This document shows positions 3,455 through 63,679 of a stretch of 64,000 bases of DNA, one piece after another. Under the pieces are notes generated by a model. It was given only the letters and a program-made list of their open reading frames with translations, made no database searches and was not told the origin of the DNA. Origin of the DNA: Vairimorpha necatrix (lineage: Eukaryota); assembly GCA_036630325.1 (NCBI GenBank), contig CP142733.1, positions 372,001 to 436,000 on the forward strand. The letters run 5' to 3'. A program made the position numbers and the translations under genes. Each line of letters begins with the position of its first letter. Within the stretch, counting starts at the first letter, position 1.

Positions 3455-4598
3455 GGTTAAATTGCGATGTTACCCCCCCCCCCCCCCACCCCTAAAAAAA
3501 TAAAAAAAAAGGGGAAAAAATAAAAAAAAGGGGAAAAAATAAAAAAAATACAAAACTAAAATTTATTCAACTAATTTAAAATCAAATTCAGGGGCCAAAT
3601 CGTAATTTAAAAACCATATATTCTGAACTTCAAAAAAGCACAACATTCTTTCAAGTAGTGATTCTCTATAAATTAACCTAAAACGAGCTATATAAAGTTT
3701 TCGAATTAAATTCATTATAGAACCATGGCTTGTTCCTTCTTTGCGCAATTCCCTTTTAATTACAGACCACATTCCCTCAATTGTTTGGGTGTGGGCGCCT
3801 GTTGTTGGATTTACAAAATTTTGGCTATGATTTACAGTTAAATGTAAATAGTTATATTCCGGACATAGTTCCGAAAACCCTTCATAACCCCGCCAACAAT
3901 CAGTAATAATTGTAGATCCAGGTGCGATTTTTCGTTTTATTAATTCGACAAGAGTATTTCTTGATCGATTTTCAACAATTTCGAAAAAAAAGAATTGCTG
4001 TCTCCTCTTACAACTCCACAACGGCCCAAACTTGGTATTGAAGGATTCTACCGTTATGGTTTTTACTTTTAGCAAGCAATGTCTCGTCTATTTCAACTAC
4101 GCAGTTTAAACCTCCTATGGTTTTGTTTTTTATGTAGTCGAAATAGGATAAGAATACAGCGTTATTAAAACGCGTAAACCAGCGAGATACGGTACTACTA
4201 TCTATATCCAATTCGATAGTAGCCAAAACATTGCTTACACCTTTAACCCATTCACACAGCAAAATTAAAAGATCTTCGATATCTAATCTAGAACTTTTAA
4301 AAATGCTTTCTTTGTAAATGTTACCTTCGTTTGAGCATTTTCTCCCATTTCGTCGTAAGTAACAACGATATTTGTCCAAATTATTTCTAATTTTGGTCAT
4401 GGGAGTCATGCACTTATTGCACATTGGCACCTTTAATATATTTTTTTCAAGAAGAAATAAAAATAATTCCTCTTTTTTATATATTAGTTTTCTAAAATTT
4501 TAGTTCTCCCCTTTTTTTTATTTTTTCCCTTTTTTTATTTTTTCCCCTTTTTTTTATTTTTTTAGGGGTGGGGGGGGGGGTAACATCGCAATTTAACC
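3455..4598 (-). mobile_element. Merlin (IS1595/ISXO2-like) DNA transposon with frameshifted transposase
   Basis: ~105-bp TIRs starting GGTTAAATTGCGATGTTACCC. 8-bp TSD TTTGTTTC at 3447-3454 and 4599-4606. Motifs VEIDET, ITDCW, VNHS and HTQTIEG in ORFs 4008-4430 and 3563-4075. Confidence 0.95.
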
Positions 4599-7500
4599 TT
4601 TGTTTCGGTAGTCCCCACTCCTCAAATATTTCTTTCATTTTTTTAAAATGTTCCCTTGTTAGTTTTATTCTTTAGATATTTTATACTAACTTTTCTTGTG
4701 TGCAGATCGATACATGTAAGTAAGGGCATAGCCTGCTCCAGGAATAAGAGATCGATGTTAACCTTACCAGTTTATAATCTGCTTCCACTAACTTTTCTCC
4801 TCCTTGTGTCTTTTGTTGATTGCATTGACAAGGTTTACAGCGTTTTAGATATTGAGCAATTGATTCGTTCAGTTTAGGCCAATAATATTTTCGTTTAATT
4901 GCATAAATCATTGCATCTCTTCCACCGTGGTTTGTAAGTCTTTCGTGTGCTTCTTCGAGGAGCGCTGGTCTTTCTTCGACTGGCGGGAAGAGCTTTGTTT
5001 CTGTATCGTTTACTTTATAGTACCACGTATCTTTAGAATCGATGAGCACATTTTTGGGCAGCTTTAAATCGTTCATATGATCTGACGTTTCATAAATTCT
5101 ACTTAACACATCAGCCTCAATAATTTCCGTGCCTTTTGTAATGTATTGTATAATCATAACTTTGTGGTTTCTCCTTCATTCGTTCTAATTTCATATTTCC
5201 AAATATATGTTTTGTTTTAACATACGTAAGAGCGGTGTGATCGGTTATTACTTTAAATTTATAGCCTTTTAGATATAGTTCATAATGTTGTATTCCCCAA
5301 GCCATAGCTAGAAATTCTTTCTCTGTTATTGTGTATTTTTTCTCTGCTTCCGACAGTTTTTTAGATGCCCAATCTATAACTATAAGTTCACCATCCTTCT
5401 CTTGTTGAAGGCAAGCTCCTATTCCAGTATTTGAAGCATCCGTTGTTATGACAAATGGTTTTGTGAAGTCTGCTACATTTATCGCTATGTTGGAATTTAT
5501 CTTATGTTTTATGTTGCAAAAGGAGTCCTCGCATTCTTTAGTCCATTTTAATTGATCATTGTCTGTAAGACCTTTAAGTGCATCATATAATGGTTGCGAA
5601 ATTGTTGCTAGATGTGCAATATATTTTCTATAGTAGTTGGCAAATCCAAGAAATTTTTGTAAGTCTTTTTTAGTTTTTGCTGTTTTGAAATCCAATATCT
5701 TTCTCTGATGTTCTCCTATTGGTCTTTGAGTTGACTCATTTATCATAGATCCTAAAAGCTATACCGTTTTGCATTTATATTGCTTTTTATCTGCATTTAC
5801 TTTAAAATTATTATCTGCGAGCCTTTGTAAAGCTTCTAATAAGTTCTGATCAAATTCTTTTTCAGTTTTTCCATATATACCATACATTTAGTTTCCATGA
5901 TATCACATAAGATGTTGTCAATTATCATTTAAAAGATTGCTGGTGAATTTTTGAAGCCTTGAGGCATTCTGGTATATTGATATAGATTGTTTCTAAAATA
6001 AAATGCTGTTTTATATTTATCTTTAGGATCAATTTTTATTTAAAAGAATCCATCTGATAAGTCTAATACCGTAAAAATCTTTTTACCCTGTGTCATATTA
6101 ATGATGTCGTTTATCTTTGGGATCAAGTAATTGTTGTCCACTACAATTTTGTTTAACCATTGCAATATTACAGGTTTTTCGATACTCTCCATTTGGTTTT
6201 TTTACTGGGCGCATAGGATTGCACTATGACGAAGTTGATCTTTCTATATAACCTAAATCCAAGAAAAATGTAATGGTTTTTTTGTGTACCCTCTATGTCA
6301 CATTGTGGTATTATTCTTTTTTTAATATTAACTTTTGCATTTTCTTTTGTATCTATTGTGCACATTATTTTATTATATCCTTCTGATGGTTCATCATTAA
6401 AAACTTTATTGAACTTTTTCTTAAGTTCTCCTATCTCATGTCTTAATTTTTGAACATTTATTATAGTTGGGTTACCGATCAAGAGGGAAATCGATACATT
6501 GTTCATAATATAAAAAGTTGTTATTATCTGTATAATATTTATTTTCACAGTCAATTCTACGTCTTCAGTTAGGGTGTTTTCTTGTCCAAAAATGTTCGTT
6601 ACTGTAATCTCCTTCGTCTCTATGTTTAGAAATTCTTTTTCTTCAACAAGCGTCCTACTAATTAAGTTTAAATTGCTACCTGAGTTTACCACTGCATTTA
6701 TTTTATCTTCAGCAATAAATACTTTCATAGTCTTGACTTCCCCTAGTGGTGTTTGTAGATTGTTAATCGAAAATATTTTTGAATTCTTTTTTTGTTCTTC
6801 TTTTGGAGGTTGTTTATGGGTTCTTACCTGTTCAATGTTCTGAGTTTGATGTTTTCTTATTTTATGGTTTTCTCTATTAATATTAAAAATTCTTTTCTCC
6901 TTAATAATTCTATCTTGTTCTGATAATCCTCGTATACTGACTGGTTAGAAAAGTAGTCTCTAAAAGTTAAGAATCCTTCTAAAGTTAAAAATGTTCTTGA
7001 GATAATTTGTTTAGCAAATTCTTCATCCATACCAGAATCATAAGCAACAGTTATAATTCTATCTAACCATTCACTCACTGGTTCATCTAACCTTTGTCTA
7101 GCTTCCAATAGTTTCAAAAGAGTTATTTCCTCAGTCATTTTTTTAATCGACCCTTTAGTTGCCTCCATGTAACATTTGTAAATTTTTGTTTGTTTTTGAT
7201 CATTAGAATTTGAGCCTCCCTATCAAGAATCCTAAGGAAGATTGATATTTTTCCTTGTCATGAATAATGTTATGAGCTTTAAATTGGAGCTCCAAATATT
7301 CCATGTCTGCTTTGGCTTTAGTAATTCTGAATGTTAGTCCTTCTATTTTTTGTTTCGTATCGGGTGCAATGTTGAAAGAATATACAAGCATAAGGGGGTT
7401 ATTTAATAATTGTCGCGCGCCCGGCGCGCGACCGGAAGAATATGTGAAGAAATTTTACATAAACATATTGTATGTTCAATCTAACTTCAGATTTGAGGTT

Positions 7501-8404
7501 TAAAAGTGTATTATTAACAAGGTTATATACAAAATGATCTTATTTTTGTAGTAACATTTTACTAACGCCCACTTACATCATGAACATAAACAAAATAAAA
7601 GATTTTTTAATTAAAGGTTGATTTTTGTCAAATTGGGTTAAGCTTTTTTTAATTTTTTAAGCGCATTAAGATTATAACAAAGATCTCTAACGGATAACTC
7701 ATTAAGCTATTTATTTATATGCATATACATAAAAAAAATTACAAATTTAAGGGTACATTGTATTCCATTATTTCTTTTCATAATGCTTAATTAGCTCTAT
7801 TTTTATAGATCAGCTTAGAAGATTCTTAGAATTTAATTAAACTTCAATTTATAAGAATTTTTATAAACAATAAAAATAAATTAAAAGGAACATTTATATA
7901 TAAACTAGAGAAATTTTTTTATTACATTAAAAACTCTTAACTCAAGTATTGATTATCTTGGAAAAATAAATTAAAAAAATAAAAATATGATGCTGTGCTC
8001 AAATATAAAGTTTTAGAAAAAATACCTAAATTTGAGTTCACAAAAATTCATTTTAGTTAATTAGGTACCCATGGCTGTGTAAAGATTACATTTTAGACGC
8101 CCGTTTAATAAATAGTCTACGAAGGTCATTTGAATATTATATTTCTAGTACGTTGGTATTTGCATTTTTACACTTTATTCTTTAAAATAACGCACATCAT
8201 ATATATATATATATATTATAAAATAAATTATGTTAAAAAAACGGGCTTAGTGATATCTTGTTAAACAGATAACTTTTTTAATTCAAAAACATACAATTTT
8301 CATGAATAAAACATTAATTGTAGTTTTCAATATATAAATTATAGGAAAAGATCGTAAACAACTAAAATTTATAGTAAAACAAATAGTAAAATTTATCTAA
8401 AGGA

Positions 8405-9629
8405 TCATTTATTTAATTTTTTAACCAGATTCATTGACATAATTTCCTCCTTACCTTCGTATTTTAACCTTAATCGGTTATTCGATAAAATTTCTATTAC
8501 TTCCCGTGGTTCACTATAAAAAGAACTCACCTTTAGTTTTTTTGTTTTCGTATTAGTGTCGAAATCTTTTTTTACAACCACTAAATTTTCAATAGAAAAA
8601 TCGTTGATGGAATTATGAACACATTTTCTGTCCATTCGAGCCAAATATTTTTCATTACTCACTGCATCACTTCCTGGAATCGTGTTTACAGTTGTTTCAT
8701 CAATATCAGTACAATCATCGTCATTCTCCCTTAGACATGTATTGTATCCAAGGCTTCCGTACCATAACTTATAGGGAGACTTCTTTGTAGCAGAATGTAC
8801 AGCGGTATTATAGTCATAAACAACTTTATTAATGACCGCTAGCCAGTTCTTATTGTTAAAACCTTTTTCGCACAGATGTTTTTGCAGGTAGCGAGTAAGG
8901 GTTTGATTAAACCTCTCGACTTGTCCTTGACTCTGGGGATGACGAGGTCTGCCATGAATAAGAATTATTTTATTTTGTTTACAAAATTCAACTAATGTTT
9001 CATTTTTAAACTCTTTGCCGTTGTCGTATTGAAGTATAGCAGGAAAGCCTAACGTTTGAAATTTGTATTCTAACCGTGATACGACTTCAGCGGCGGTTTT
9101 AGTTTTCAAAGCAGAATTAAAAGCATATTTAGAAAATACATCTATTGCTGTGAGTATCCAACTAAAACCATCATTTTCATCACTATAAGTCCTCATATCA
9201 ACAAGATCAATAATAAATCTTTCAAAGGGTCTTTTAGCGACGATGTGCTTGAACTTTTCTTTTGTTTTAAGAGGTTGTGCTGTCATGCATATATTGCATT
9301 CACTGCAAACCTCCCCTACAATACACCTAGGTATACTATAGTATTGTTCCTTACACTTATCATAGAGACGGTTCGCGACATAATGATGCTGCCGATGAAG
9401 TTCTTGGACCTCTTTTTCATAGCTTGGACCATAGTACTTACAAATACTCTTTTGTGCCAGCCCCCCCCCCCACATCCTTCAAGAAAAGAATGTTATCCAC
9501 AAGAATAAAACTTTGGGATTTCTTCTTTAGCCTATATTTTAAATGTTTATCACATTCTAGGCTAACCTCGTCCCCTTTGAGTATTTGGACAAGCCGATCA
9601 TACTCAACTTGGTCTTTTACTTCTTTCAT
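8405..9629 (-). pseudogene. rve-type integrase/transposase (HHCC zinc finger + DDE), frameshifted at homopolymer runs near 9415-9470
   Basis: ATG at 9629 with CCC motif. H-x3-H...CxxC, IDLVD, QYDNGKEF and HPQSQGQVERFN motifs. The frameshift may be a sequencing error. Confidence 0.85.
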
Positions 9630-9696
9630 AGAGGGTAAAAAAAAAATTTTTTTAAAATGATGAATCTTTACTATAAGTATTTGCAAAATATTTTAG

Positions 9697-9780
9697 TCAA
9701 CCAGCTTGGCACAGTGGTTGTTATGGTCATCCGTCACATTGAAGGTCGTAGTTCGAATCCCAACGTGTTGAATATTTTTT
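9697..9780 (+). promoter_or_regulatory. tRNA-type Pol III internal promoter (A box + B box + T6) inside the Ginger-like element
   Basis: A box TGGCACAGTGG at 9707-9717, B box GTTCGAATCC at 9751-9760, TTTTTT at 9775-9780. tRNA-like spacing but no convincing cloverleaf. Confidence 0.6.
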
Positions 9781-10975
9781 AGGGGTCATAAAAAAGATAG
9801 TTGAATAATCATAAACAGTTAACATACAGAAATTCATAGCTTGTATAATTACAAATTTCAAATGTTAAAAATTCTGTTAGGTTTAGTAAATTAGGAAAAA
9901 ATCCGGTCGCGCACTGGGCGCGGTCGCTCGTTGGGCGCGCGACAATAATTATTATAAGGACACCAACATATAACGTCATATATTCTTTAAAAACTTTATC
10001 TTTTGTTTGCGTTTGCACTTACAATGATCAGGCTCTTAAATATTGGCAAAAACTATTGTAAATAAACTTAATTCACTTTGTACAATTAATCTTTTTGAAT
10101 CCGTTGAGTTCAGGATAGAATATATCGACTCTAATTAAAAAATGCAAGTTTGTTTTCTAAAGTATCATAATAATTTCAATAAAGCTTTTAACTTACTTAT
10201 CAAAACTAGATATATAAATTACAAAAAAGCGAATTTAAAGTTGTAAGATCACACAACAGAGTATTTAACGCAGCACTCATCATATAACGTTTATAATTTT
10301 TGATTTAAACGAACTTCTTAATATTATTGTCGTAGTTTCTTACGCTCCAAGAGAGCATTTATAATGCTTAATTATTTCTATATGTTTTAATAATATATTA
10401 ACCATACCTTAAGAAAAGAGAAGAGGACGAAAATAAAATAAAGCGTTAAAAAAACAATTAAATTTTTCACTGTAATTGTGATGACTTTATTGATGGATGT
10501 GAAACATCATCACAAAGACATTTAGTTTATAATACTTTCTTAAACTAAATGTCTTTCATTTGTTTGTTTACAAACAATCAAATATTTAAAAAATTATAAA
10601 ATAGCCCCCAAAAAGAAAGGAGGATGGTTCTAAAATATAATAATAAAACCCATATAGTAAAAATCATATTTACATACATAAAACTAATAATCTTATTGGG
10701 ACGTACCTCCGCTTGGGGTATGTCAGTAATATATAATTATTTTTCATTACTATTCGCTAAGTTTATTATACAAACACATTAAAATGAGTAAACAAAATTT
10801 AAAAAAATTGTTGCTAAATTATAAATATAAAAATAAATATAAGGTAAATAAACAATGAATAAAACTTTTTGCACTTTGATGAACTTCTGGAGAAATAGAG
10901 AAGTATCACTAATTAGCTAGCAATCCAATGAAATGATGTTTATAAAAAAAATTGAAAAATATCAGAAGAAATAGT

Positions 10976-54616: not shown

Positions 54617-55622
54617 TGTGGTATCCCACAAGTAATTCATTTTTTTTTGTTTCTTTGTTTGTTTGATTTGAACGAATTGTTTACAAACAAACAAAGAAAA
54701 CTATAAATATAAATTTTGCCCTTACCCATACCTAAAATACGAACTAACGATGAATATGAGAAAACAGAGTAACGAGAAACAAAACATTGTAAAAAAAAAA
54801 TTTAATATAAACGACCACGACAACATGCTGGAGCATTTTTACCAGCATGGCTACGTCAGATTGAATTCAATAGACACAAAAGTAGCAATAGAAATGACAA
54901 ACAAAAACAACGAAATATACAAAACAATGACATTCGAAATTCATATCAAAGGACTAAACGAACGACTCAAACAGGAAATTGTAATTATAGAAGACATTGA
55001 AAAGATAGATATTATTAGGTGGTGTAAAGATTTTGAAGAACTGATAACTAGTAACAAATGGAGTAAAGTGATAGTATCTAAAGTCCTAAAAACACTCATA
55101 AAAGATGAAAGAGTCGAAAGGGAAGAATTGGAGAATTCTTGGAAGTACATTAAAACATATCTGTTTTCCATACTTTATCCCAAGGAAGAGGAGAGACTAT
55201 ATGCTAAGAAACTGGAAAGTATTTATCAAATTAAATTTAGATCGATAGTTCAATATAACAAAGAGATAAAAAAATTAATGAACATTTATAAAATAATTTC
55301 GGATATGAATGAAAAAGAATATGACAAAAAAATAGCGACCGTATTTTTTAACGGCTTAAGCAAATATACCTATGGAAAAATCTTAGAACTACAAATAACA
55401 AATTATGAAGAGTGTTATGCATATTTACTGGATATCGAGAAAAAATTAACTACGAAATGCAAAGAAATGAACGAAGGAAAAAGAAAGAATGAGAAGATAG
55501 TTCCAACGAATTCTCAACAAGATGAAAATATTAAGAAGAATTATGAGGAGAGAAATTTTTGCAAATTACATCGCTGGTGTAACCACACGACCGAGGAATG
55601 CACCAAGTACGATCCAAAATAT
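54617..55622 (+). mobile_element. 5' half (5' LTR + gag) of Gypsy family B element
   Basis: LTR at 54617-54858 preceded by CTAAA. Gag ORF starts at 54750 inside the LTR and has the CHHC knuckle CKLHRWCNHTTEEC. Ends at CAAAATAT before Merlin B. Confidence 0.95.
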
Positions 55623-56730
55623 GGTGCTCCTTTGGTATGCGATCAGAATTTTTTTTTAAAAAAAAAATTCTGACCCCCCTAAAAATGGAAAATAGTGACT
55701 TTAAAATTTCTGATCGCATACCAAAGAAAAGCACAAAAATTAAAATAAAGGTTATTCAAAGGCTTTTCTAAGGCATCGACGACTGTTTAAACTTATTACT
55801 TGAGTTAGAAGTCTTGAAAGAGCAAAAGACGTGCTTTAAATGCAATGAGATTTCAAATGTTGTATTATATAAGGAGAGAGAGGTTAAAAGAGTGGTATAC
55901 AGGTGTTCTAATTATACAATGCTAAAATAACAGTTAACAAAGGAAGCAAGTTACCTTTATATAATTTTTGTGAATTAATATTTTTAATTTTGTGTAGGAG
56001 TAGTTATTTTACTTTAGAGGCAAAACTAGGAGTTTCTTCATCGACAGTTTCCGATGCAAAAAAAAGAATTAGAGAAATTTTATAAACAAAATTTCTAAGA
56101 GGCTTATTATTGATGGACCAAGAAAAATTGTCCAAGTTGATGAGTCTGTAATTTGTAGAAGAGGTAAAATAAGAAATCCAACAAGTTGTGATGATATAAT
56201 CCCTGATACTGTTTGGATACTAGGTATAGTAGAAGCATCTAATCCTACGAACTTTTACATTACAGTGGTGGATAATAGAAAAGTCGAGTGTTTAACAGTT
56301 GCTCAAGAAGGTAAAACAGGGGTTGGTTCGATTTTACATAGTGATGGTTATCCGATTTATCCAAGTGTAGCACGAAATTTTTGTCTTGAACATAAGGTAG
56401 TAAACCACTCTATCGGGTTTAAATCTGCAGATGGTACTCATACCAATAACATTGAGAATGTATGGTCGCAGCTAAAATCTGAAATGACCAAAGAACATAG
56501 AGTTAAGCGTAATGAAATTGATTCATGGCTGCAATGATTTTATATATAAGAAAGATTTTTGTAAAGAGGACAATTTAGAGGAGTTTTACGACTGTTATGT
56601 TGATTTATTGTATAATTTACTCAATTAAATCAAATTTATAGTATTTTTTAACGTTTTTTCATATTTTTTTCATTTTTTTTCCTTTACAAGGGGGGGGTCT
56701 TGGTGTCCGATCGCATACCAAAGAAGCACC
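55623..56730 (+). mobile_element. Merlin element B with pseudogenised transposase, homologous to Merlin A
   Basis: TIRs GGTGCT(C/T)CTTTGGTATGCGATC. ATG at 55685. HTNNIENVWSQLKSEMTKEH shared with Merlin A. Confidence 0.93.
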
Positions 56731-57351: not shown

Positions 57352-59080
57352 TGTCGCGAGCCCAGCTGGTTACCGTAATTTTTCTTATTTTTTTAGACTA
57401 TTTTTTTTTTTAATTCTATGAATTATATTTTCATAATTTTATACCGTATTAATCAGTAACTATTTTACAGGAAACTTTTTCTTTGACACTTTTTTCTACG
57501 CATATACGGCTCGAACCAGATGCTTGCAGGACAAAAGCACAAGCAAACCACTGAGCTAAACTAAACTGTTTAGTAATAAAAAATACAAGAATATTAAAAC
57601 AATGTATAATTCATTTTCCCCTAATGAAAGGAATCAAAACTCAAGATAAGTATAATCTTCTTGTTAATTTACTGCAAGGAGATGATTGGAGTGCAATTGT
57701 CGACAAAAAAGTAAGGTATAAGTGTTAAAAATTGCCGAAAACTCTTCTCTTGCAGATAATATACTCTTTTTGTGAGATATTTCTGACTTGCGCAAAATGT
57801 AGTTGTGAGAGTTTAATACAGTCCATGGTATTCGAAATACGAACTCTACATAGATGTATCACTATGGACACAATCGTTTATATGAGTTGTGCCAGCAATT
57901 TTAATTCAATACTCCCAGAAGCCTCGTGCGAGAGGTTTGCAAAGAGTGCAATATTGTTCACAAACACACCTTTTAAAAAATAAAACCTACAAGCACATAT
58001 TTGCTAAAGGCCCTTTGAGGGTGTCATCATCGACCTAGAGACATTAGGTGGTATGCTGACGAAAAACGAAATATTGTTGATACTAACAGCTTTAGATGTA
58101 TAGTCTAAGTATGTATTTACCAATTTTATAAAGTATAAAACGGCCTCAAAAGTTTTACTACATTTAAAATATAATTTAAATCGATATGGACTTCCTTGTA
58201 AACTCCAGTGTGATAATGGTAAAAGATTTAAAAAATCACTTTTATTTGAATTCTGCGAGCAGAATAAAATTTTACTAGTCCATGGCAGACCCAGGCATCA
58301 TCAGAATCAAGGTCAAGTTGAGAGATTTAATCAAACTCTTTCTCGATAATTGCAAACATCGATATGCAGAATTTGGTCCAATATAAAAAACTGGGTCTAT
58401 TTAATTGACACAGTTCTTTTTCGTACAACATCGTCGCACATTTTGCAACAAAAAAAATCTCCATTTGATTCTTTTTATGGAAGAAAGGGATATAATACTT
58501 GTAAATGCAGCAACAACGACGAAGAAATCATCGAAGAAGACTTAGATTTTATGTTTAAGCGAGAAAATAGATCTATGGTAGATGAAAAATATCTCTTAAG
58601 AATGACAAAAAATGTGTCTACAATTCTATCAATGATTTTATTATAGGCGATAATGTGATGTTAAAAAGGATTTTGATGCTAACTTTAAACCAAAAAAGTT
58701 AAAACTAAGTTCGTTTCATTCCGAACCAAGAGAAGTAATAGCAATTTTGTCTTATAATCGATTAAAAGTTAAGTTTAATGATTCTATAGAAATTGTGTTA
58801 ATGAATTTGTTAAAAAATTAAATAAATAGTTAAGCTTTGATTATTAAAATATCATTCGCAAATTTTATTTTTAAATTTTTAACATGAATTTTTTCAATAC
58901 ATTTTATTATTCTATACTAATGTTACTTTAATTCAACATAAACGTAGATGTGTCATAAGTATATTGAATTAGATTTTAACTTTTGAATGCATAAAATACT
59001 TGTTCTATTTTCTAATAGTACAAACAATTTTGTTGAAGCCTTCCAGATTATAACTAGCGTGCTGCACAGGGATGCGGCTT
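57352..59080 (+). mobile_element. Second, diverged Ginger-like element; integrase pseudogene at 57624-58830; right end not found
   Basis: Left TIR TGTCGCGAGCCC. CCCCTAATG start MKGIKTQDKYNLLV aligns to MKEVKDQVEYDRLV. HGRPRHHQNQGQVERFNQTL motif. Confidence 0.85.
57508..57558 (-). promoter_or_regulatory. Pol III A box + B box in the second Ginger-like element
   Basis: TAGCTCAGTGG (57558-57548) and GGTTCGAGCC (57517-57508) on the minus strand, in the same position and orientation as in copy 1. Confidence 0.6.
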
Positions 59081-59401: not shown

Positions 59402-62400
59402 TGTGGTATAATATCTCATACCACATGTTTATGGTGACCAATAGACGATGAAACGCTAATGTGCTTTGATACACGTCAAGCATCTCTAATTGTTAGTGGA
59501 CAGTTCTGAAACACTAATTTCTAATTGGTTACACACAAATATAAATAACGAAATTCATCACTTAAAAAGAATGAGGATGCCTAAGAACAACAACAGCCGC
59601 ACTCCAGCTCAGGCCCATGACGGCAATAACAATAAACACTATTCAAATACATTTACACCTACCTTGGGAATTCATGGTACACATAACCGTAGCATTATTG
59701 AATGCTTTCTTGCCACTGGCACAATTCCAGGTAAATACGCCAATTTGAGCTCAAATGGCAATAAAGGTACAAAGTCATTTACATCTGGAGATAAACATCA
59801 TTACGCGGAATTTAAAAGAACTGTTGAAGGTACAGACGTACCAATCCAAGACTATATACTCAAGATATTTAATATCAAATCAGATCTCACTACAGCAGGT
59901 CTCAAAGAGTTTGAAACTCTTTCTGAGTATAATAAGTGGAATGACACACAAAGCGGTCAAATTTACCATAGTCTAATCTATGATTCTACTTATAAGGATA
60001 AACTTACTAGGAACAGTTACAAGGCACTGAGAAAAGAACTTCTAGACATACTGTATCCAAAGACCCAACACAGAATTCTCTCGCAAAAAATTGACAATAT
60101 CAGGCAAACTGATCATTTTTCCATTAACGAGTATATGGAAACAATTTCTAAAGGATTAGAAGGCTACATTCATGTCAACGATCTTTCAAGAAAGGAAGTG
60201 GAAAGAAAACAAGAAGAAATATTTTTCAAAGGTTTGGGAAGATATACCACTATCAAGATTACCGATCAAAGACTCAAAACGGCTCCATTTCAAGAAATTA
60301 TTCAATTTTTAATAGAACTGGAAGAAAGCATATTATCCCAGTCCGCAGAGACCAAACAAGGCTTAATAACCCAGACAACGGGTGCGAACAAGACTAAATA
60401 CGCCTTTACTAATAAGAAGTGGTGTAAATACCATCACTCGAAGTTTCACAACACTAAAGATTGTTCCCTTCATAAAACCTCACAATCAGAAGATGTCAAA
60501 AGCATGATTATCACTGAACTTAAAGTCGACAATCATGAAGGGATAAAAATTCAAGGAGAATTAAATGGAACTAACCTACAGTTATTTGTTGACACGGGTG
60601 CATCTTGCAATTATATTCACGAAAAACTGTTAAAGTCCTTAAAGCTGAACACAATTGAAACTAAACCTCTAACTATGATATTTGGATGTGGTACTAAAGA
60701 AACCACTAGTCGAGCCGTCGAAACTAAAATACGTATTAAGGATAAAGACTATGATATCACATTTTATGTTTTACAGCGTATACCAGAAGATATTATCTTG
60801 GGATATGAATTTTTATATGCTAACGAAGCAGTAGTAAACTTAAGAAAGAAAATTATTACCTTAGGAAATGGACATACTATCCCATTTATTGGGGCTGAAG
60901 TTACATCTGAGGAAATTCTTGATGAAATATTAGCTGAAAGCACTTGCTTACCCATACTCATGGAAGATAAAAAACTATTAAAAATCTTTAAGCAGTATTT
61001 TAAATTTAATGACCAATTTAGCCACATCAAAAATTTCTCAATATCGTTCCAACTTAAATCAGATATTCCAAGTTCGAAGACAAGGCACTACTCTGTCCCA
61101 GGAAAGTTTTTACCAGCAGCAAAAGAGGAAATTAAAAGACTGGTTGAAAACGACATTATTGAACCGTGCACCTCCAACATATCAAGCCCTGCATTTTTTA
61201 TCAAAAAGAAGAACGGCGAGTTACGTCTTGTGGTAGATTATAGAACGGTTAACACATACGTTGAAGATGATTTATATGTTATACCCTTGATAGATGAAAG
61301 CTTCCGATTGATGCAAGGTTGCAAGATTTTCAGCCAAATCGACTTACGCAATGGTTTTAACCAATTGCTCTTGGATAAAAATAGCAGAAACATAACGTCT
61401 TTCACTCTTCTCGGTCGACAATGGCGATATAAAAGAGTCCCTTTTGGGATCAAGCCAGGTCCAAAAATATTTCAAAGACACATTTCAGAAATTTTAAGCC
61501 ATATAGACAATTGCTTTGTCTATATAGATGACATAATTCTGTACTCCAAAAGCAGGGAAGAGCACGTAATCCTACTCAATAGAGTACTTGAGACACTGTA
61601 CCAATATACAGTCAAGATCAATTTCGATAAGTCGAAATTCTGCACCACTGAACTCGTTATATTAGGTGCCAGAATCAACAAAAATGGTATATCACCAGTC
61701 ATCGATAACCTCGCGGCTAAAATTCTACAAATAGATCTGAAATCAAAACGAAGCGTTCAACAGCTTATAGGAACATTAAACTGGTATCGGAAATTTGTTC
61801 CTCGTATATCAACACGTATTTCGGAATTAACAGAATTGCTAAAAAAAGGAGAAAAACATTATAAATTACCAGAAGCTACAAAAACAGAGATTAACGCTAT
61901 TATTGAAGAGCTTAAAGTAGTCAAGCTAGGATTCCCAGATTATAGAAAGAAATTTACACTTCAAACAGACGCTTCAGAAAAAGGAATAGGTAGCGTACTT
62001 CTACAAGAAGACATAATCATAGGTTATTATAGCAAGAAACTGGCAGGCTCTGAACTTAATTACACTATAGTCGAAAAAGAGTATCTAGCCATTCTTCTCT
62101 CCGCAATTCATTTTGAAAGCATCATTCAGGGATGTTATGTAGAAATACATACTGACAGTAACAACTGTTCGTTTGAAAATAAAAGCCTAACCACGAGGAT
62201 TAACAGATGGAAACTGATCATGAATAAATTTAATCATAAGATCTTCCATATCAAAGGAAAGGATAACACAGTAGCAGACACATTATCGCGTTGTCTACTT
62301 TTACAGATCATGCCTCTCAAGATACAATACGACAATGTCGTTAAAACTTCATGCACGTCAAACAACGGCGTATTACTCAGGAACGATAGAGGCCAACTGG

Positions 62401-63679
62401 TTATCAGGAATGACAAAATCAAATCTTTCCTAAAAAGCATACATGACATATCAGGTCACCGAGGAGTTTCTACACTCTACAACAACATTAAAAAATACAT
62501 TTACGTAAAAAACGCCCTACAAAGGATATCTTGGGTAGTAAAAAGTTGTTCTGTATGCAGAAAATTCAAGATAATTAACAATAGTCATCAAAATACGGTG
62601 AAGATGGATTCATCTAGATTATACGAGCGCATATCATCAGATATCTTCGGACCATTCAAGTATCATACTCCTTCCCCGAACTCTGAGGAGAAGATAGGAT
62701 ATATACTTACGATATCAGATATATATTCTAGAGAAGTGATGTTAATATTCTTTAAGACGATTAAAACTCAAGAATTAATCGATTCTATAGAAGCATGGAT
62801 TAAGACAAGAGACAGGCCTAAGCATTTAATATCGGATAACGGACGACAATACATCTCCGCAGGTTTCAAAGAGTATCTAGCTACTACAGGAATAAATCAC
62901 ATTCTAATACCGACATACACACCCAAATCAAATGGGATATCCGAACGCCTAAACCAAACTATTGCCTTCACGCTTTCCATAAACAAATTCCGAGACATCT
63001 ACGAGACTGTTAAAGAAGCAGAAAATATATTAAATATCAACTTTAATCGAGGGATTAAAGCCTCGCCTTATCTTATAGCATATGGCAGGGACTTCTACGA
63101 TTTAGACACCAAACAGCAAACAATAACAAAAAAACCAAACGCTGTAGCGTATACTTCTAAGTTCAACGTGGGAGACATTGTCTACAAAAGAAATTTAAAA
63201 GCAGGAAAACTCGATCGGAAATATGGAACAAGACAAATAGTTGAAGAAGTGGGAAGCAAAGGTAAATGGGTTCGCTTAAAAGATGACGAATCATGGACGC
63301 ATGTCCGAAACTTGAAATTTTAGTTGGAGTTGGCAGTATGTGGTATAATATCTCATACCACATGTTTATGGTGACCAATAGACGATGAAACGCTAATGTG
63401 CTTTGATACACGTCAAGCATCTCTAATTGTTAGTGGACAGTTCTGAAACACTAATTTCTAATTGGTTACACACAAATATAAATAACGAAATTCATCACTT
63501 AAAAAGAATGAGGATGCCTAAGAACAACAACAGCCGCACTCCAGCTCAGGCCCATGACGGCAATAACAATAAACACTATTCAAATACATTTACACCTACC
63601 TTGGGAATTCATGGTACACATAACCGTAGCATTATTGAATGCTTTCTTGCCACTGGCACAATTCCAGGTAAATACGCCA
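59402..63679 (+). mobile_element. Intact, recent Ty3/Gypsy LTR retrotransposon (family C)
   Basis: 341-bp LTRs at 59402-59742 and 63339-63679, identical by eye. Perfect TSD GTTAG. Single open gag-pol frame. Inserted in a Merlin TIR. Confidence 0.98.
59571..63323 (+). CDS. Gag-Pol polyprotein (Gag, CHHC knuckle, protease, RT, RNase H, integrase)
   Basis: First ATG at 59571 (or 59577) lies inside the 5' LTR. CKYHHSKFHNTKDC, VDTGA, YIDD, QTDAS, HHCC, SDNG and NGISER motifs. Confidence 0.95.
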   Translation: MRMPKNNNSRTPAQAHDGNNNKHYSNTFTPTLGIHGTHNRSIIECFLATGTIPGKYANLSSNGNKGTKSFTSGDKHHYAEFKRTVEGTDVPIQDYILKIFNIKSDLTTAGLKEFETLSEYNKWNDTQSGQIYHSLIYDSTYKDKLTRNSYKALRKELLDILYPKTQHRILSQKIDNIRQTDHFSINEYMETISKGLEGYIHVNDLSRKEVERKQEEIFFKGLGRYTTIKITDQRLKTAPFQEIIQFLIELEESILSQSAETKQGLITQTTGANKTKYAFTNKKWCKYHHSKFHNTKDCSLHKTSQSEDVKSMIITELKVDNHEGIKIQGELNGTNLQLFVDTGASCNYIHEKLLKSLKLNTIETKPLTMIFGCGTKETTSRAVETKIRIKDKDYDITFYVLQRIPEDIILGYEFLYANEAVVNLRKKIITLGNGHTIPFIGAEVTSEEILDEILAESTCLPILMEDKKLLKIFKQYFKFNDQFSHIKNFSISFQLKSDIPSSKTRHYSVPGKFLPAAKEEIKRLVENDIIEPCTSNISSPAFFIKKKNGELRLVVDYRTVNTYVEDDLYVIPLIDESFRLMQGCKIFSQIDLRNGFNQLLLDKNSRNITSFTLLGRQWRYKRVPFGIKPGPKIFQRHISEILSHIDNCFVYIDDIILYSKSREEHVILLNRVLETLYQYTVKINFDKSKFCTTELVILGARINKNGISPVIDNLAAKILQIDLKSKRSVQQLIGTLNWYRKFVPRISTRISELTELLKKGEKHYKLPEATKTEINAIIEELKVVKLGFPDYRKKFTLQTDASEKGIGSVLLQEDIIIGYYSKKLAGSELNYTIVEKEYLAILLSAIHFESIIQGCYVEIHTDSNNCSFENKSLTTRINRWKLIMNKFNHKIFHIKGKDNTVADTLSRCLLLQIMPLKIQYDNVVKTSCTSNNGVLLRNDRGQLVIRNDKIKSFLKSIHDISGHRGVSTLYNNIKKYIYVKNALQRISWVVKSCSVCRKFKIINNSHQNTVKMDSSRLYERISSDIFGPFKYHTPSPNSEEKIGYILTISDIYSREVMLIFFKTIKTQELIDSIEAWIKTRDRPKHLISDNGRQYISAGFKEYLATTGINHILIPTYTPKSNGISERLNQTIAFTLSINKFRDIYETVKEAENILNINFNRGIKASPYLIAYGRDFYDLDTKQQTITKKPNAVAYTSKFNVGDIVYKRNLKAGKLDRKYGTRQIVEEVGSKGKWVRLKDDESWTHVRNLKF

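What the first reader, a model, noticed from the sequence alone, without database searches (positions are those of the whole stretch)
9697..9780. Pol III (tRNA-type) A/B-box cassette conserved in Ginger-like transposons
Seen: copy 1 has TGGCACAGTGG...GTTCGAATCC followed by T6. The diverged copy 2 has TAGCTCAGTGG...GGTTCGAGCC (57558-57508, minus). In both, the boxes are 42-44 nt apart (about 45 in tRNAs), lie 66-78 bp upstream of the integrase ATG, and point away from it toward the GC-rich TIR. The sequence between the boxes is not conserved and no cloverleaf forms. Established: A/B boxes recruit TFIIIC and can act as promoters or chromatin barriers. Inference: a DNA transposon family that carries its own Pol III unit, either a small RNA partner of the integrase or an insulator or nucleosome-free region that protects the transposase promoter. 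I do not know of this being described.
Basis: partly seen in the sequence, partly recalled or inferred. Interest (0 to 1): 0.8.

Follow-up and report, generated by a model that had tools for sequence, protein, structure and literature searches.

The report
tRNA-like cassette inside Ginger2 transposons
A lineage of cut-and-paste transposons, seen here in a probably microsporidian genome and also in coral and sea-anemone type DNA, carries next to its integrase gene a decayed tRNA copy that keeps only the two RNA polymerase III promoter boxes, which suggests the transposon recruits the cell's tRNA transcription machinery.

Summary
Copy 1 has a perfect A box (9707-9717), a B box with one mismatch (9750-9760) and T6 (9775-9780). 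Copy 2 has the same pair on the minus strand (57558-57507). These are the only two A/B pairs in the 64-kb window. Neither is a tRNA by ARAGORN, Rfam or folding.

Both units lie inside Ginger2/Tdd-type transposons. Copy 1 spans 7411-9944, with TGTCG termini, a 5-bp ATAAT target duplication and an rve integrase. Each unit sits 66-78 nt upstream of the integrase ATG, on the opposite strand, and points toward the TIR.

A sequence model of the unit was run over 171 related loci (769 kb). It found the same arrangement in six loci forming three subfamilies of a cnidarian-type Ginger2 clade. Its only other hits were true bacterial tRNAs. Another 46 integrase-only loci with upstream DNA lack the unit. 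A single origin is not rejected.

In the cnidarian units the boxes are followed by a purine-rich stretch free of T4 and a T-run at about +215.

Best reading: a tRNA-derived Pol III (TFIIIC) promoter module kept by selection. Expression and function are untested. I found no published description.

The parts
7406..7410 (.). Left copy of the 5-bp target-site duplication ATAAT of copy 1
   Evidence: ATAAT stands at 7406-7410 and at 9945-9949. table 7: an X1 contig runs from the left flank up to 7411 and continues with 13 letters identical to 9951-9963. This is an empty site holding one ATAAT.
7411..7436 (+). Left terminal inverted repeat of copy 1, terminus TGTCG (TGTNR type)
   Evidence: I1 7404-7434/9921-9951, 31 nt, 87%; I3 7416-7436/9902-9922, 90%. 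(TGTCGCG 4 matches against 0.77 expected; 3 of them are element termini).
8405..9629 (-). Ginger2-type integrase gene of copy 1 (H2C2 zinc finger plus rve DDE core). The reading frame is broken twice, in homopolymer runs near 9412-9421 and 9461-9473.
   Evidence: ORF 8405-9475. Pfam rve 1.6e-13. The N-terminal 55 aa of homologues continue in the frame from ATG 9629 and then in a third frame. Other copies in runs X1/X2 differ in length exactly at 9412 and 9461 (table 4).
9630..9696 (-). AT-rich 67-nt spacer between the integrase ATG and the tRNA-like unit. It is presumably the integrase promoter, with GGG (CCC on the sense strand) next to the ATG and TATAAG at 9672-9677.
   Evidence: CTTTCAT..GGG is conserved in both copies. 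The promoter role is inferred.
9697..9780 (+). tRNA-derived unit of copy 1, the stretch reported in the finding
   Evidence: R1 hit 9704-9762, 36.4 bits.
9707..9717 (+). A box TGGCACAGTGG (0 mismatches to TRGCNNAGTGG)
9750..9760 (+). B box AGTTCGAATCC (1 mismatch to GGTTCGANNCC), preceded by AAGGTCGT as in the variable-loop/T-stem region of tRNAs
9775..9780 (+). T6 run, a possible Pol III terminator in this copy only
   Evidence: offset +68. Interrupted in other copies.
9902..9944 (-). Right terminal inverted repeat of copy 1 (GC-rich, ends ...CGCGACA)
9945..9949 (.). Right copy of the target-site duplication ATAAT
57352..57376 (+). Terminus and TIR of copy 2 (TGTCGCGAGCCCAGCTGG...), flanked by TATA. 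The other end of copy 2 was not found.
   Evidence: No inverted partner.
57507..57558 (-). tRNA-derived unit of copy 2: A box TAGCTCAGTGG (57558-57548) and B box GGTTCGAGCCG (57517-57507), with a T4 between the boxes
   Evidence: (R1 hit 57505-57561, 32.8 bits).
57624..58821 (+). Degraded integrase of copy 2 (several frameshifts and stops)
   Evidence: fragmentary frames. (tblastn 40% over 277 aa and 67% over 52 aa; blastn 67.3% over 924 nt).

Best explanation
The stretch is a tRNA-derived RNA polymerase III type-2 promoter module: an A box and a B box at tRNA spacing, with the tRNA fold lost. It is a built-in, inherited component of one lineage of Ginger2/Tdd-type cut-and-paste DNA transposons. 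It sits between the integrase promoter and the nearer TIR and reads outward, divergently from the integrase.

Shown: the boxes exist. They are tRNA-like. They lie inside a mobile element with TIRs and a target-site duplication. The same arrangement recurs in the diverged window copy and in three subfamilies of a cnidarian-type Ginger2 clade, while the surrounding non-coding sequence has diverged.

Inferred: the boxes are kept by selection because they bind TFIIIC, which would place TFIIIB on the AT-rich spacer next to the integrase start. The module would then work mainly at the DNA level. It would act as a position-independent Pol III-factor platform that keeps the adjacent integrase promoter open or shields it from the insertion site. 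It would also give a short non-coding Pol III transcript: about 80 nt in copy 1, and about 225 nt, purine-rich and T-run terminated, in the cnidarian elements.
For: - Exact boxes and spacing, far above chance.
- tRNA ancestry. The sequence-only model R1, built from five units, otherwise hits only ARAGORN-confirmed bacterial tRNA genes in 769 kb. AGGTCG-N-GGTTCGA is shared between lineages.
- The unit is inside the element, not beside it: TIRs at 7411-7436 and 9902-9944, TSD ATAAT, and an empty-site contig in run X1.
- 8 of 8 units (2 window copies, L010, L011, L023, L030, L037, L043) lie upstream of the integrase on the opposite strand. L037 and L043 were not in the model's training set (E 2e-4).
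- The integrases of the two groups are only about 28-37% identical, and the flanks of the units do not align, yet the boxes stay at consensus.
- A tree holding all 8 cassette rows as one clade against the 83 cassette-less loci is not rejected (delta lnL 0.17, p-AU 0.48).
- In the cnidarian units the first T4+ run comes at +212 to +224 in L011, L023, L030 and L037, against a background mean gap of 85-105 nt. It is T5 to T12 long. This is what a Pol III gene with a terminator looks like.
- No conserved fold or body sequence. This points to the DNA boxes rather than an RNA as the conserved object.
Against: - No expression or binding data of any kind. No RNA run was available and no genome is held.
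- The terminator is not conserved in the window family: T6 in copy 1, T3-A-T3 in near-identical copies, and a T4 inside the unit of copy 2.
- 46 of 52 integrase-only relatives with upstream DNA have no cassette, so it is dispensable for Ginger2 transposition in general.
- Copy 2 is a dead copy, and copy 1 has two frame breaks.
- Homology of the microsporidian-type and cnidarian-type cassettes is not proven. On the free tree they sit in two places.
- DNA of the closest relatives (proteins P0001-P0006, 47-54% identical to the query by BLASTP) could not be fetched.
- Whether the host keeps a TFIIIC that reads these boxes was not tested.
- The T4-free body could be a by-product of purine-rich composition.
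Confidence: 0.55

Rival explanations
1. The unit is a gene for a functional non-coding RNA made by Pol III. The RNA serves the transposon directly, for example as a partner, scaffold or regulator of the integrase. The RNA is the selected product.
For: Full A plus B box promoter rather than a B box alone. T6 behind copy 1. A consistent unit of about 215-225 nt ending in T5-T12 in four cnidarian loci. The L023 minimum-energy fold is cloverleaf-like.
Against: No sequence conservation outside the boxes, either between the two lineages or among cnidarian subfamilies. The predicted length differs: about 80 nt against about 225 nt, and 426 nt in L010. Fold z-scores run from -1.15 to +0.74, none significant. 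T4 inside copy 2 and a broken T-run in near-identical copies. No known DDE integrase needs an RNA (recalled).
Confidence: 0.15
2. Neutral relic. A tRNA pseudogene or SINE head landed in an ancestral element, or independently in two ancestors. It is carried along without function, and the boxes look conserved only because they are the most recognisable part.
For: The cassette is absent from most relatives. The window copies are defective. An imperfect direct repeat, ATATTTTAG (9689-9697) and ATATTTTTTAG (9772-9782), brackets the copy 1 unit and could be an old target duplication. The terminator is decaying.
Against: Integrases at 28-37% identity imply saturated neutral sites, yet the A box is 11 of 11 in w1, w2, L023 and L030, and the B core GGTTC(G/A)A is kept in all. 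Position and orientation are the same in 8 of 8 units. Flanks and between-box sequence have diverged.
Confidence: 0.15
3. The motifs work as ordinary Pol II promoter or upstream elements of the integrase gene, bound by some other factor. Their likeness to A/B boxes is historical or coincidental.
For: They lie 66-200 nt upstream of the ATG, where promoter elements are expected. The cnidarian upstream regions hold other conserved blocks as well (TGCGCATG, AATAAATTAAAATTT, AAACAT).
Against: Both boxes, their order, their strand and their tRNA spacing are kept together with the AGGTCG..GGTTCGA context. The model of the unit cross-hits real tRNAs. A non-Pol III factor would not need all of this.
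Confidence: 0.1
4. An independent tRNA-derived SINE with its own copies elsewhere inserted by chance into both window copies. It is not part of the transposon.
For: The genome outside the 64-kb window could not be searched.
Against: There are no solo A/B pairs in the window (2 of 2 pairs are in the elements). The position relative to ATG and TIR is the same in two copies that are 67% identical, and in six loci from elsewhere. The unit has no SINE body or tail in the window copies.
Confidence: 0.05

Closest known systems
Ginger2/Tdd DNA transposons (Bao, Kapitonov and Jurka 2010, PMC2836005; abstract and the Ginger2 section read, plus term searches of the main text)
   Same: Integrase-only element of about 2.5 kb. 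H2C2 plus rve DDE core. No RT nearby. TIRs of tens of bp with TGTNR termini. AT-rich target. A 5-bp duplication as in TDD-4/5. Relatives named KRBA2-like or SCAND3-like in cnidarians.
   Different: The paper's main text has 0 occurrences of tRNA, polymerase III or promoter. A tRNA-like A/B-box unit upstream of the integrase is not part of the published description. A microsporidian host is not listed there. Its additional files and Repbase consensus sequences could not be seen.
tRNA-derived SINE heads and other Pol III type-2 promoters (recalled textbook knowledge)
   Same: A box and B box at tRNA spacing without a working tRNA. In the cnidarian units, a head followed by an unrelated body of about 170 nt.
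   Different: The unit is embedded at a fixed place inside an autonomous DNA transposon. It is not a free retroposed unit. The window copies have no LINE-derived or A-rich tail. The unit ends in a T-run (terminator) rather than poly(A).
tRNA genes and TFIIIC-only sites (ETC/COC sites) acting as chromatin barriers or insulators in yeasts and mammals (recalled)
   Same: The proposed mode of action is TFIIIC bound to a B box next to a Pol II promoter, independent of the RNA made.
   Different: Those are host loci. ETC sites usually keep only the B box, whereas here the A box is the better conserved motif. Nothing of this was tested here.
Integrase-bearing elements that target Pol III genes (Ty3, Ty1, Dictyostelium TRE and DGLT-A; recalled)
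   Same: A link between a retroviral-type integrase element and the Pol III machinery.
   Different: Those elements insert next to host tRNA genes. Here the tRNA-like unit lies inside the TIRs and travels with the element. No tRNA gene lies near either window copy.

Membership tests
tRNA gene | Cloverleaf with acceptor, D, anticodon and T arms, detectable by ARAGORN or Rfam RF00005 | tested here: not met
   ARAGORN: 0 in the window and 0 in 13 loci including all six cassette loci. Rfam: no tRNA hit at E<=10. Fold z-scores are not significant.
Pol III type-2 (tRNA-type) promoter | A box TRGCNNAGTGG (consensus recalled) | tested here: met
   0 mismatches in w1, w2, L023 and L030; 1 in L010/L011; 2 in L037/L043 (read).
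Pol III type-2 (tRNA-type) promoter | B box GGTTCGANNCC, 30-60 nt behind the A box on the same strand | tested here: met
   1 mismatch in w1, w2, L010/L011 and L037/L043; 2 in L023 and L030. Start-to-start spacing is 41-45 nt.
Pol III type-2 (tRNA-type) promoter | Run of at least 4 T behind the unit and none inside it | tested here: inconclusive
   Met in w1 (T6 at +68) and in L011, L023, L030 and L037 (+212 to +224). Not met in w2 (T4 at +22). T6 is interrupted in near-identical copies.
Pol III type-2 (tRNA-type) promoter | Transcription by Pol III and binding of TFIIIC | not testable with these tools
   No RNA holder was listed, and only DNA contigs could be laid.
Ginger2/Tdd DNA transposon | Gypsy-like integrase (H2C2 zinc finger plus DDE rve core) as the only gene, with no RT or RNase H | tested here: met
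   Pfam rve 1.6e-13. Invariant H27, H31, C60, C63 and D/D/E columns. No RT match on W1/W2. The integrase-only clade is separate from RT-linked integrases at 99% support.
Ginger2/Tdd DNA transposon | Terminal inverted repeats with TGTNR termini | tested here: met
   TGTCG at 7411 and, inverted, at 9944. TIR 87-90% complementary. Copy 2 has the terminus TGTCG at 57352. L030 has termini TGCAG and TGTGG.
Ginger2/Tdd DNA transposon | Short AT-rich target-site duplication (4 bp in metazoan Ginger2, 5 bp in TDD-4/5) | tested here: met
   ATAAT on both sides of copy 1, and an empty-site contig in run X1. Copy 2 is flanked by TATA on the one end found.
tRNA-derived SINE | Dispersed solo copies with their own target duplications, independent of the integrase element | tested here: inconclusive
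   0 solo units in the 64-kb window and 0 outside the upstream position in 171 loci. The loci were chosen for the integrase, and the host genome is not held.

The most novel reading that the evidence does not exclude
One Ginger2 subclade, spanning cnidarians and microsporidia, is a DNA transposon with two divergent transcription units: a Pol II integrase gene and its own Pol III gene. The Pol III unit would be needed for the element's success. TFIIIC/TFIIIB occupancy would keep the integrase promoter open and shielded wherever the element lands. In cnidarians, transcription through the G-rich body, possibly forming R-loops, would add to this effect. That would be the first autonomous cut-and-paste transposon known to carry a Pol III promoter as a self-insulating or anti-silencing device.
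Probability: 0.3. Interest if true: 0.8.

Novelty: new variant of a known kind. Interest (0 to 1): 0.64.

Why it matters
DNA transposons are thought to rely on a Pol II promoter and on their TIRs. An autonomous element that keeps a tRNA-type Pol III promoter next to its transposase gene, across hosts as far apart as cnidarians and a microsporidian-type genome, would be a new way for a transposon to secure expression or escape position effects and silencing. It would also be a new link between retroviral-type integrases and the Pol III machinery. In the known cases the integrase targets host tRNA genes; here the element carries the tRNA-like unit itself. The idea is directly testable in Nematostella or corals with ChIP and RNA data. 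It may also matter for annotation, because such units would be missed by tRNA and SINE finders. The shared cassette could also serve as a marker for tracing horizontal transfer of Ginger2 elements between animals and their microsporidian parasites.

Tried and rejected
- tRNA and RNA-family identification failed. ARAGORN and Rfam at gathering and at E<=10 gave only weak unrelated matches.
- RNA folding of six units gave no significant z-score.
- The window's own genome is not held, so genome-wide copy counts and solo-unit searches could not be done.
- Sequencing runs: no RNA holder was listed. All four runs laid were DNA-type contigs, so nothing can be said on expression. Parts without cover mean nothing. 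231 difference rows were not shown, so box conservation among near copies could not be counted.
It did not return the contigs of the closest protein relatives (P0001-P0006, 47-54% identical by BLASTP). The tool that fetches encoding contigs is closed. Upstream DNA of the nearest family members was therefore not seen.
- TIR search in L037, L023 and L010 at seed 11 and length 20 found nothing. Those contigs may lack one end. Only L030 showed both ends.
- The other end of copy 2 was not found.
The two boxes were then searched separately, and the pairing was done by script.
- Earlier findings of this scan: three look-ups, nothing returned.
- Literature: six searches and term searches in six papers gave no report of tRNA-like or Pol III elements in Ginger transposons.
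- Considered and dropped: a primer-binding-site relic of an LTR retrotransposon. The unit is a whole antisense tRNA-like stretch 125 nt from the TIR, it does not abut a repeat, and the element has no RT.
- Considered and dropped: insertion next to a host tRNA gene. The unit lies inside the TIRs and the target duplication.

Full report
**Observation.**
- On the + strand, copy 1 reads TGGCACAGTGG at 9707-9717, AGTTCGAATCC at 9750-9760 and T6 at 9775-9780.
- On the - strand, copy 2 reads TAGCTCAGTGG from 57558 and GGTTCGAGCCG ending at 57507.
- The A-box consensus (recalled: TRGCNNAGTGG) matches exactly twice in the 64 kb on both strands, against 0.22 expected from shuffles. Both matches are these sites.
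- The B core GTTCGANNC matches three times against 2.54 expected. Two of the three lie 33-34 nt behind the two A boxes on the same strand.
- A paired scan allowing two mismatches in total finds only these two pairs in the window.
- Start-to-start spacing is 43 and 41 nt.

This is not chance.

**Not a tRNA.** ARAGORN calls no tRNA in the window. Rfam gives nothing at gathering scores and no tRNA match at E<=10 on either unit. Folding energies are no better than shuffles, with z-scores of +0.74 and +0.55.

**The elements.**
- Copy 1 is a complete small DNA transposon. Inverted repeats stand at 7404-7436 and 9902-9951. The termini are TGTCG...CGACA at 7411 and 9944 (TGTCGCG has 4 matches against 0.77 expected, and 3 of them are element ends).
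- ATAAT stands on both sides, at 7406-7410 and 9945-9949.
- In public run X1 one contig runs through the left flank to 7411 and continues with 13 letters identical to 9951-9963. This is an empty site with a single ATAAT (table 7).
- Other contigs leave the element at 7405 or 9951 into different flanks. The family is therefore multi-copy and this insertion is polymorphic.
- The only gene is an integrase on the minus strand: ORF 8405-9475, Pfam rve 1.6e-13.
- Homologues carry about 55 more N-terminal residues. These are encoded from ATG 9629, but through two frame changes in homopolymer runs. Other copies in X1/X2 differ in length at exactly those runs, 9412 and 9461 (table 4).
- Copy 2 (57352 to about 58821, integrase on the + strand) is degraded. 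It is 67% identical in DNA over 924 nt of coding sequence and 40-67% identical in protein. Only one terminus was found (TGTCGCG at 57352, flank TATA).
- An integrase with H2C2 and DDE, no RT, TGTNR termini and a short AT-rich duplication are the defining features of Ginger2/Tdd elements (abstract and the Ginger2 section of PMC2836005 read).
- The best named protein relatives come from microsporidia: Nosema granulosis, Pseudoloma, Enteropsectra, Nematocida and Dictyocoela. The window is 30.5% G+C. The host is therefore probably a microsporidian. This is an inference.

**Place of the unit.** In both copies the unit lies inside the element. It is 78 and 66 nt upstream of the integrase ATG, on the opposite strand, and reads toward the TIR, which starts about 125 nt further on. 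An alignment of the two upstream regions shows islands of identity in otherwise diverged AT-rich sequence:
- the start codon with its flanking GGG;
- a TTTAGT block;
- the A box with its GTGGTT extension;
- AAG and GTTCGA of the B box;
- the TIR end.

Blastn does not align these upstream regions at all.

**Relatives from elsewhere.**
- The integrase alignment was used to fetch 171 loci from metagenome, viral and prokaryote-assembly collections.
- The A/B pair scan found pairs in L010, L011, L023 and L030, all upstream of the integrase match on the opposite strand. It also hit bacterial tRNA genes and two loose matches (L141, L168).
- A sequence-only covariance model R1 was built from w1, w2, L010, L023 and L030. 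It was run over the window and all 171 loci, 769 kb in total.
- R1 hit only the two window units, the training loci (and L011, whose unit is identical to L010's), two loci not used for training (L037 2429-2488 and L043 65-124, 20 bits, E 2e-4, again upstream and on the opposite strand), and sites in L131 and L138.
- Five of the seven L131/L138 hits lie within tRNA genes called by ARAGORN. The two weakest, at E 3.7 and 4.5, lie beside or across them.
- The model thus measures likeness to tRNA, and the cassette occurs nowhere else in this sample.
- With the filters off, 26 other integrase-only relatives (81.8 kb) gave nothing better than E 1.7.
- Of 76 loci without RT among L001-L099, 52 have at least 300 nt upstream of the estimated start. 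Six of the 52 carry the cassette.

**Phylogeny.**
- The tree used 113 integrase rows: the best single HSP per locus of at least 150 aa among L001-L099, W1, W2 and 22 database proteins. Loci with shorter HSPs and L100-L171 were left out. The method was quick IQ-TREE, LG+G4.
- RT-linked integrases separate from an integrase-only clade (99% support).
- The cassette rows fall in two places. W1 and W2 sit within the microsporidian group, nearest P0002. The six loci form a clade at 99% support with three subfamilies: L010/L011, L023/L030 and L037/L043. This clade sits next to KRBA2-like animal proteins.
- The intact 502-aa integrase of L037 has named relatives in Nematostella, Porites, Montipora and Acropora. 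This second group is cnidarian-type Ginger2.
- Cassette-less loci (L001, L002, L092, L096, L003, L008, L095) lie between the two groups on the free tree. An AU test does not reject a tree that holds all eight cassette rows together against the 83 cassette-less loci (delta lnL 0.17, p-AU 0.48).
- One origin with later spread between hosts, one origin with losses, and two gains all remain possible.

**Anatomy of the cnidarian units.** Going outward from the integrase ATG, the order is:
1. A promoter region of 90-190 nt with conserved blocks (TGCGCATG, an AT-rich block, AAACAT).
2. The A box, then AGGTCG-N-GGTTC(G/A)A (the B box), then GGTAAGT or GATGAGT.
3. A purine-rich, C-poor stretch (4-12% C) that is not conserved in sequence.
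4. The first run of four or more T. It comes at +212 to +224 from the A box in L011, L023, L030 and L037, and is T5 to T12 long. In L010 the G-rich stretch is expanded and the run comes at +426.
5. Subterminal repeats and the terminus. L030 has arms at 496-569 and 2764-2837 and ends TGCAG/TGTGG.

The background spacing of T4+ runs in these loci is 85-105 nt. A T4-free stretch of about 215 nt ending in a strong T-run, seen in three subfamilies, is what a Pol III gene looks like. The purine bias may contribute to this pattern.

ARAGORN and Rfam see no tRNA in these units either. Only L023 gives a cloverleaf-like minimum-energy fold, and its z-score of -1.15 is not significant.

**How it most likely works.**
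- Shown: a tRNA-derived A/B-box pair at tRNA spacing is a fixed internal part of a mobile Ginger2 lineage in two very different host groups. The boxes stay at consensus while everything around them, including the transcribed body and any fold, has changed.
- Inferred from established Pol III biology (recalled): such boxes bind TFIIIC. TFIIIC places TFIIIB about 30 nt upstream of the start site. In copy 1 that is the AT-rich 67-nt spacer (with TATAAG at 9672-9677) that separates the unit from the integrase ATG.
- I therefore favour a DNA-level role. The module would be a Pol III-factor platform that travels with the element. It would keep the adjacent divergent integrase promoter accessible or shielded from the insertion site. 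An outward non-coding transcript would be a by-product or accessory.
- The poor conservation of the terminator in the window family argues against the RNA itself being the selected product. The evidence is T3-A-T3 in near-identical copies and a T4 inside the unit of dead copy 2.
- The regular length and strong terminator in cnidarians keep the RNA reading alive.
- Nothing on binding or expression could be tested. No RNA run was listed and the genome is not held.

**Comparison with what is known.**
- The carrier is a Ginger2/Tdd element by every feature I could test.
- The unit works like a SINE head or a tRNA-type promoter, but it is not a tRNA. It could not be shown to be a SINE, and it could not be excluded genome-wide.
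- Host tRNA genes and TFIIIC-only sites act as barriers in yeasts and mammals (recalled). Ty3, Ty1 and the Dictyostelium TRE and DGLT-A elements target host tRNA genes (recalled). Here the tRNA-like unit is inside the transposon.
- In print I found no mention of tRNA, Pol III or A/B boxes in Ginger elements. I ran six full-text searches.
- Term searches gave 0 occurrences in the main text of PMC2836005, PMC6839031, PMC3575427 and PMC12863088. PMC5751038 also has 0 for tRNA. PMC3845634 names tRNA four times; the one of the four occurrences shown is in a list of downloaded data.
- Supplements and Repbase consensus sequences could not be seen and might show the unit without comment.

**Verdict.** The cassette is real, tRNA-derived, inherited and recurrent in a Ginger2 sublineage. 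It is not universal in Ginger-like elements, and its activity is unproven. I rate it a new variant of known kinds (a Ginger2 transposon plus a Pol III type-2 promoter module), of good interest.

Noticed in passing
window 7405-7411 and 9944-9963 (table 7): Run X1 holds a contig with the empty target site of copy 1 (left flank joined to right flank with one ATAAT). Other contigs leave the element ends into different flanks. The insertion is polymorphic and the family is multi-copy, which suggests recent mobility.
   Followed up: partly
window 9412-9421 and 9461-9473: Copy 1's integrase frame is broken in an A/T run and in an 11-nt C run. Contigs of X1 and X2 differ in length at exactly these places (+1 at 9412, -5 at 9461). 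The breaks may be private to this copy or assembly errors in homopolymers.
   Followed up: partly
window 8406 and 9922 (table 5c, run X2): One X2 record joins 9922 to 8406 with three extra letters. It may be an internally deleted, non-autonomous derivative lacking both the integrase and the tRNA-like unit, or a rearranged copy.
   Followed up: no
window 59571-63323 (+): An intact 1250-aa Gypsy-type gag-pol ORF (protease, RT, RNase H, integrase) lies directly downstream of the truncated copy 2. Its insertion may have removed copy 2's far end.
   Followed up: no
window 4008-7168 (-) and 54672-55673 (+): Further retrotransposon remains: fragmented pol ORFs on the minus strand (4681-6728), a gag-like ORF (6857-7168), and a 333-aa gag-like open frame at 54672-55673.
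   Followed up: no
window 4008-4424 (-) and 55772-56537 (+): Two related ORFs with a C-rich N-terminus followed by an ...VEIDETLL.../...VQVDESVI... block look like another DDE transposase family (ISXO2-like by recall). They were not searched.
   Followed up: no
L010 77-487 (+) and L010/L011, L023, L030, L037 downstream of the B box: The purine-rich stretch behind the cnidarian units is very variable in length: 212-224 nt in most, 426 nt in L010. On the opposite strand it opens a spurious proline-rich ORF. A 5' splice-site-like GGTAAGT directly follows the B box in three subfamilies. In the L023 fold it pairs with the 5' end like an acceptor stem.
   Followed up: partly
L010, L023, L030, L037 between ATG and A box: A conserved TGCGCATG palindrome-like motif (NRF1-site-like by recall) and an AT-rich block AATAAATTAAAATTT lie in the presumed integrase promoter of the cnidarian elements.
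   Followed up: no
L037 490-1663 (-): Two host ORFs (234 and 166 aa) that look like parts of a glycosyltransferase gene lie next to the element. This shows L037 is a piece of an animal genome within a metagenome assembly.
   Followed up: no
window 9699-9710 vs 57361-57372: The 12 nt just before and into copy 1's A box (AACCAGCTTGGC) resemble a stretch of copy 2's TIR (AACCAGCTGGGC). This is probably chance.
   Followed up: no
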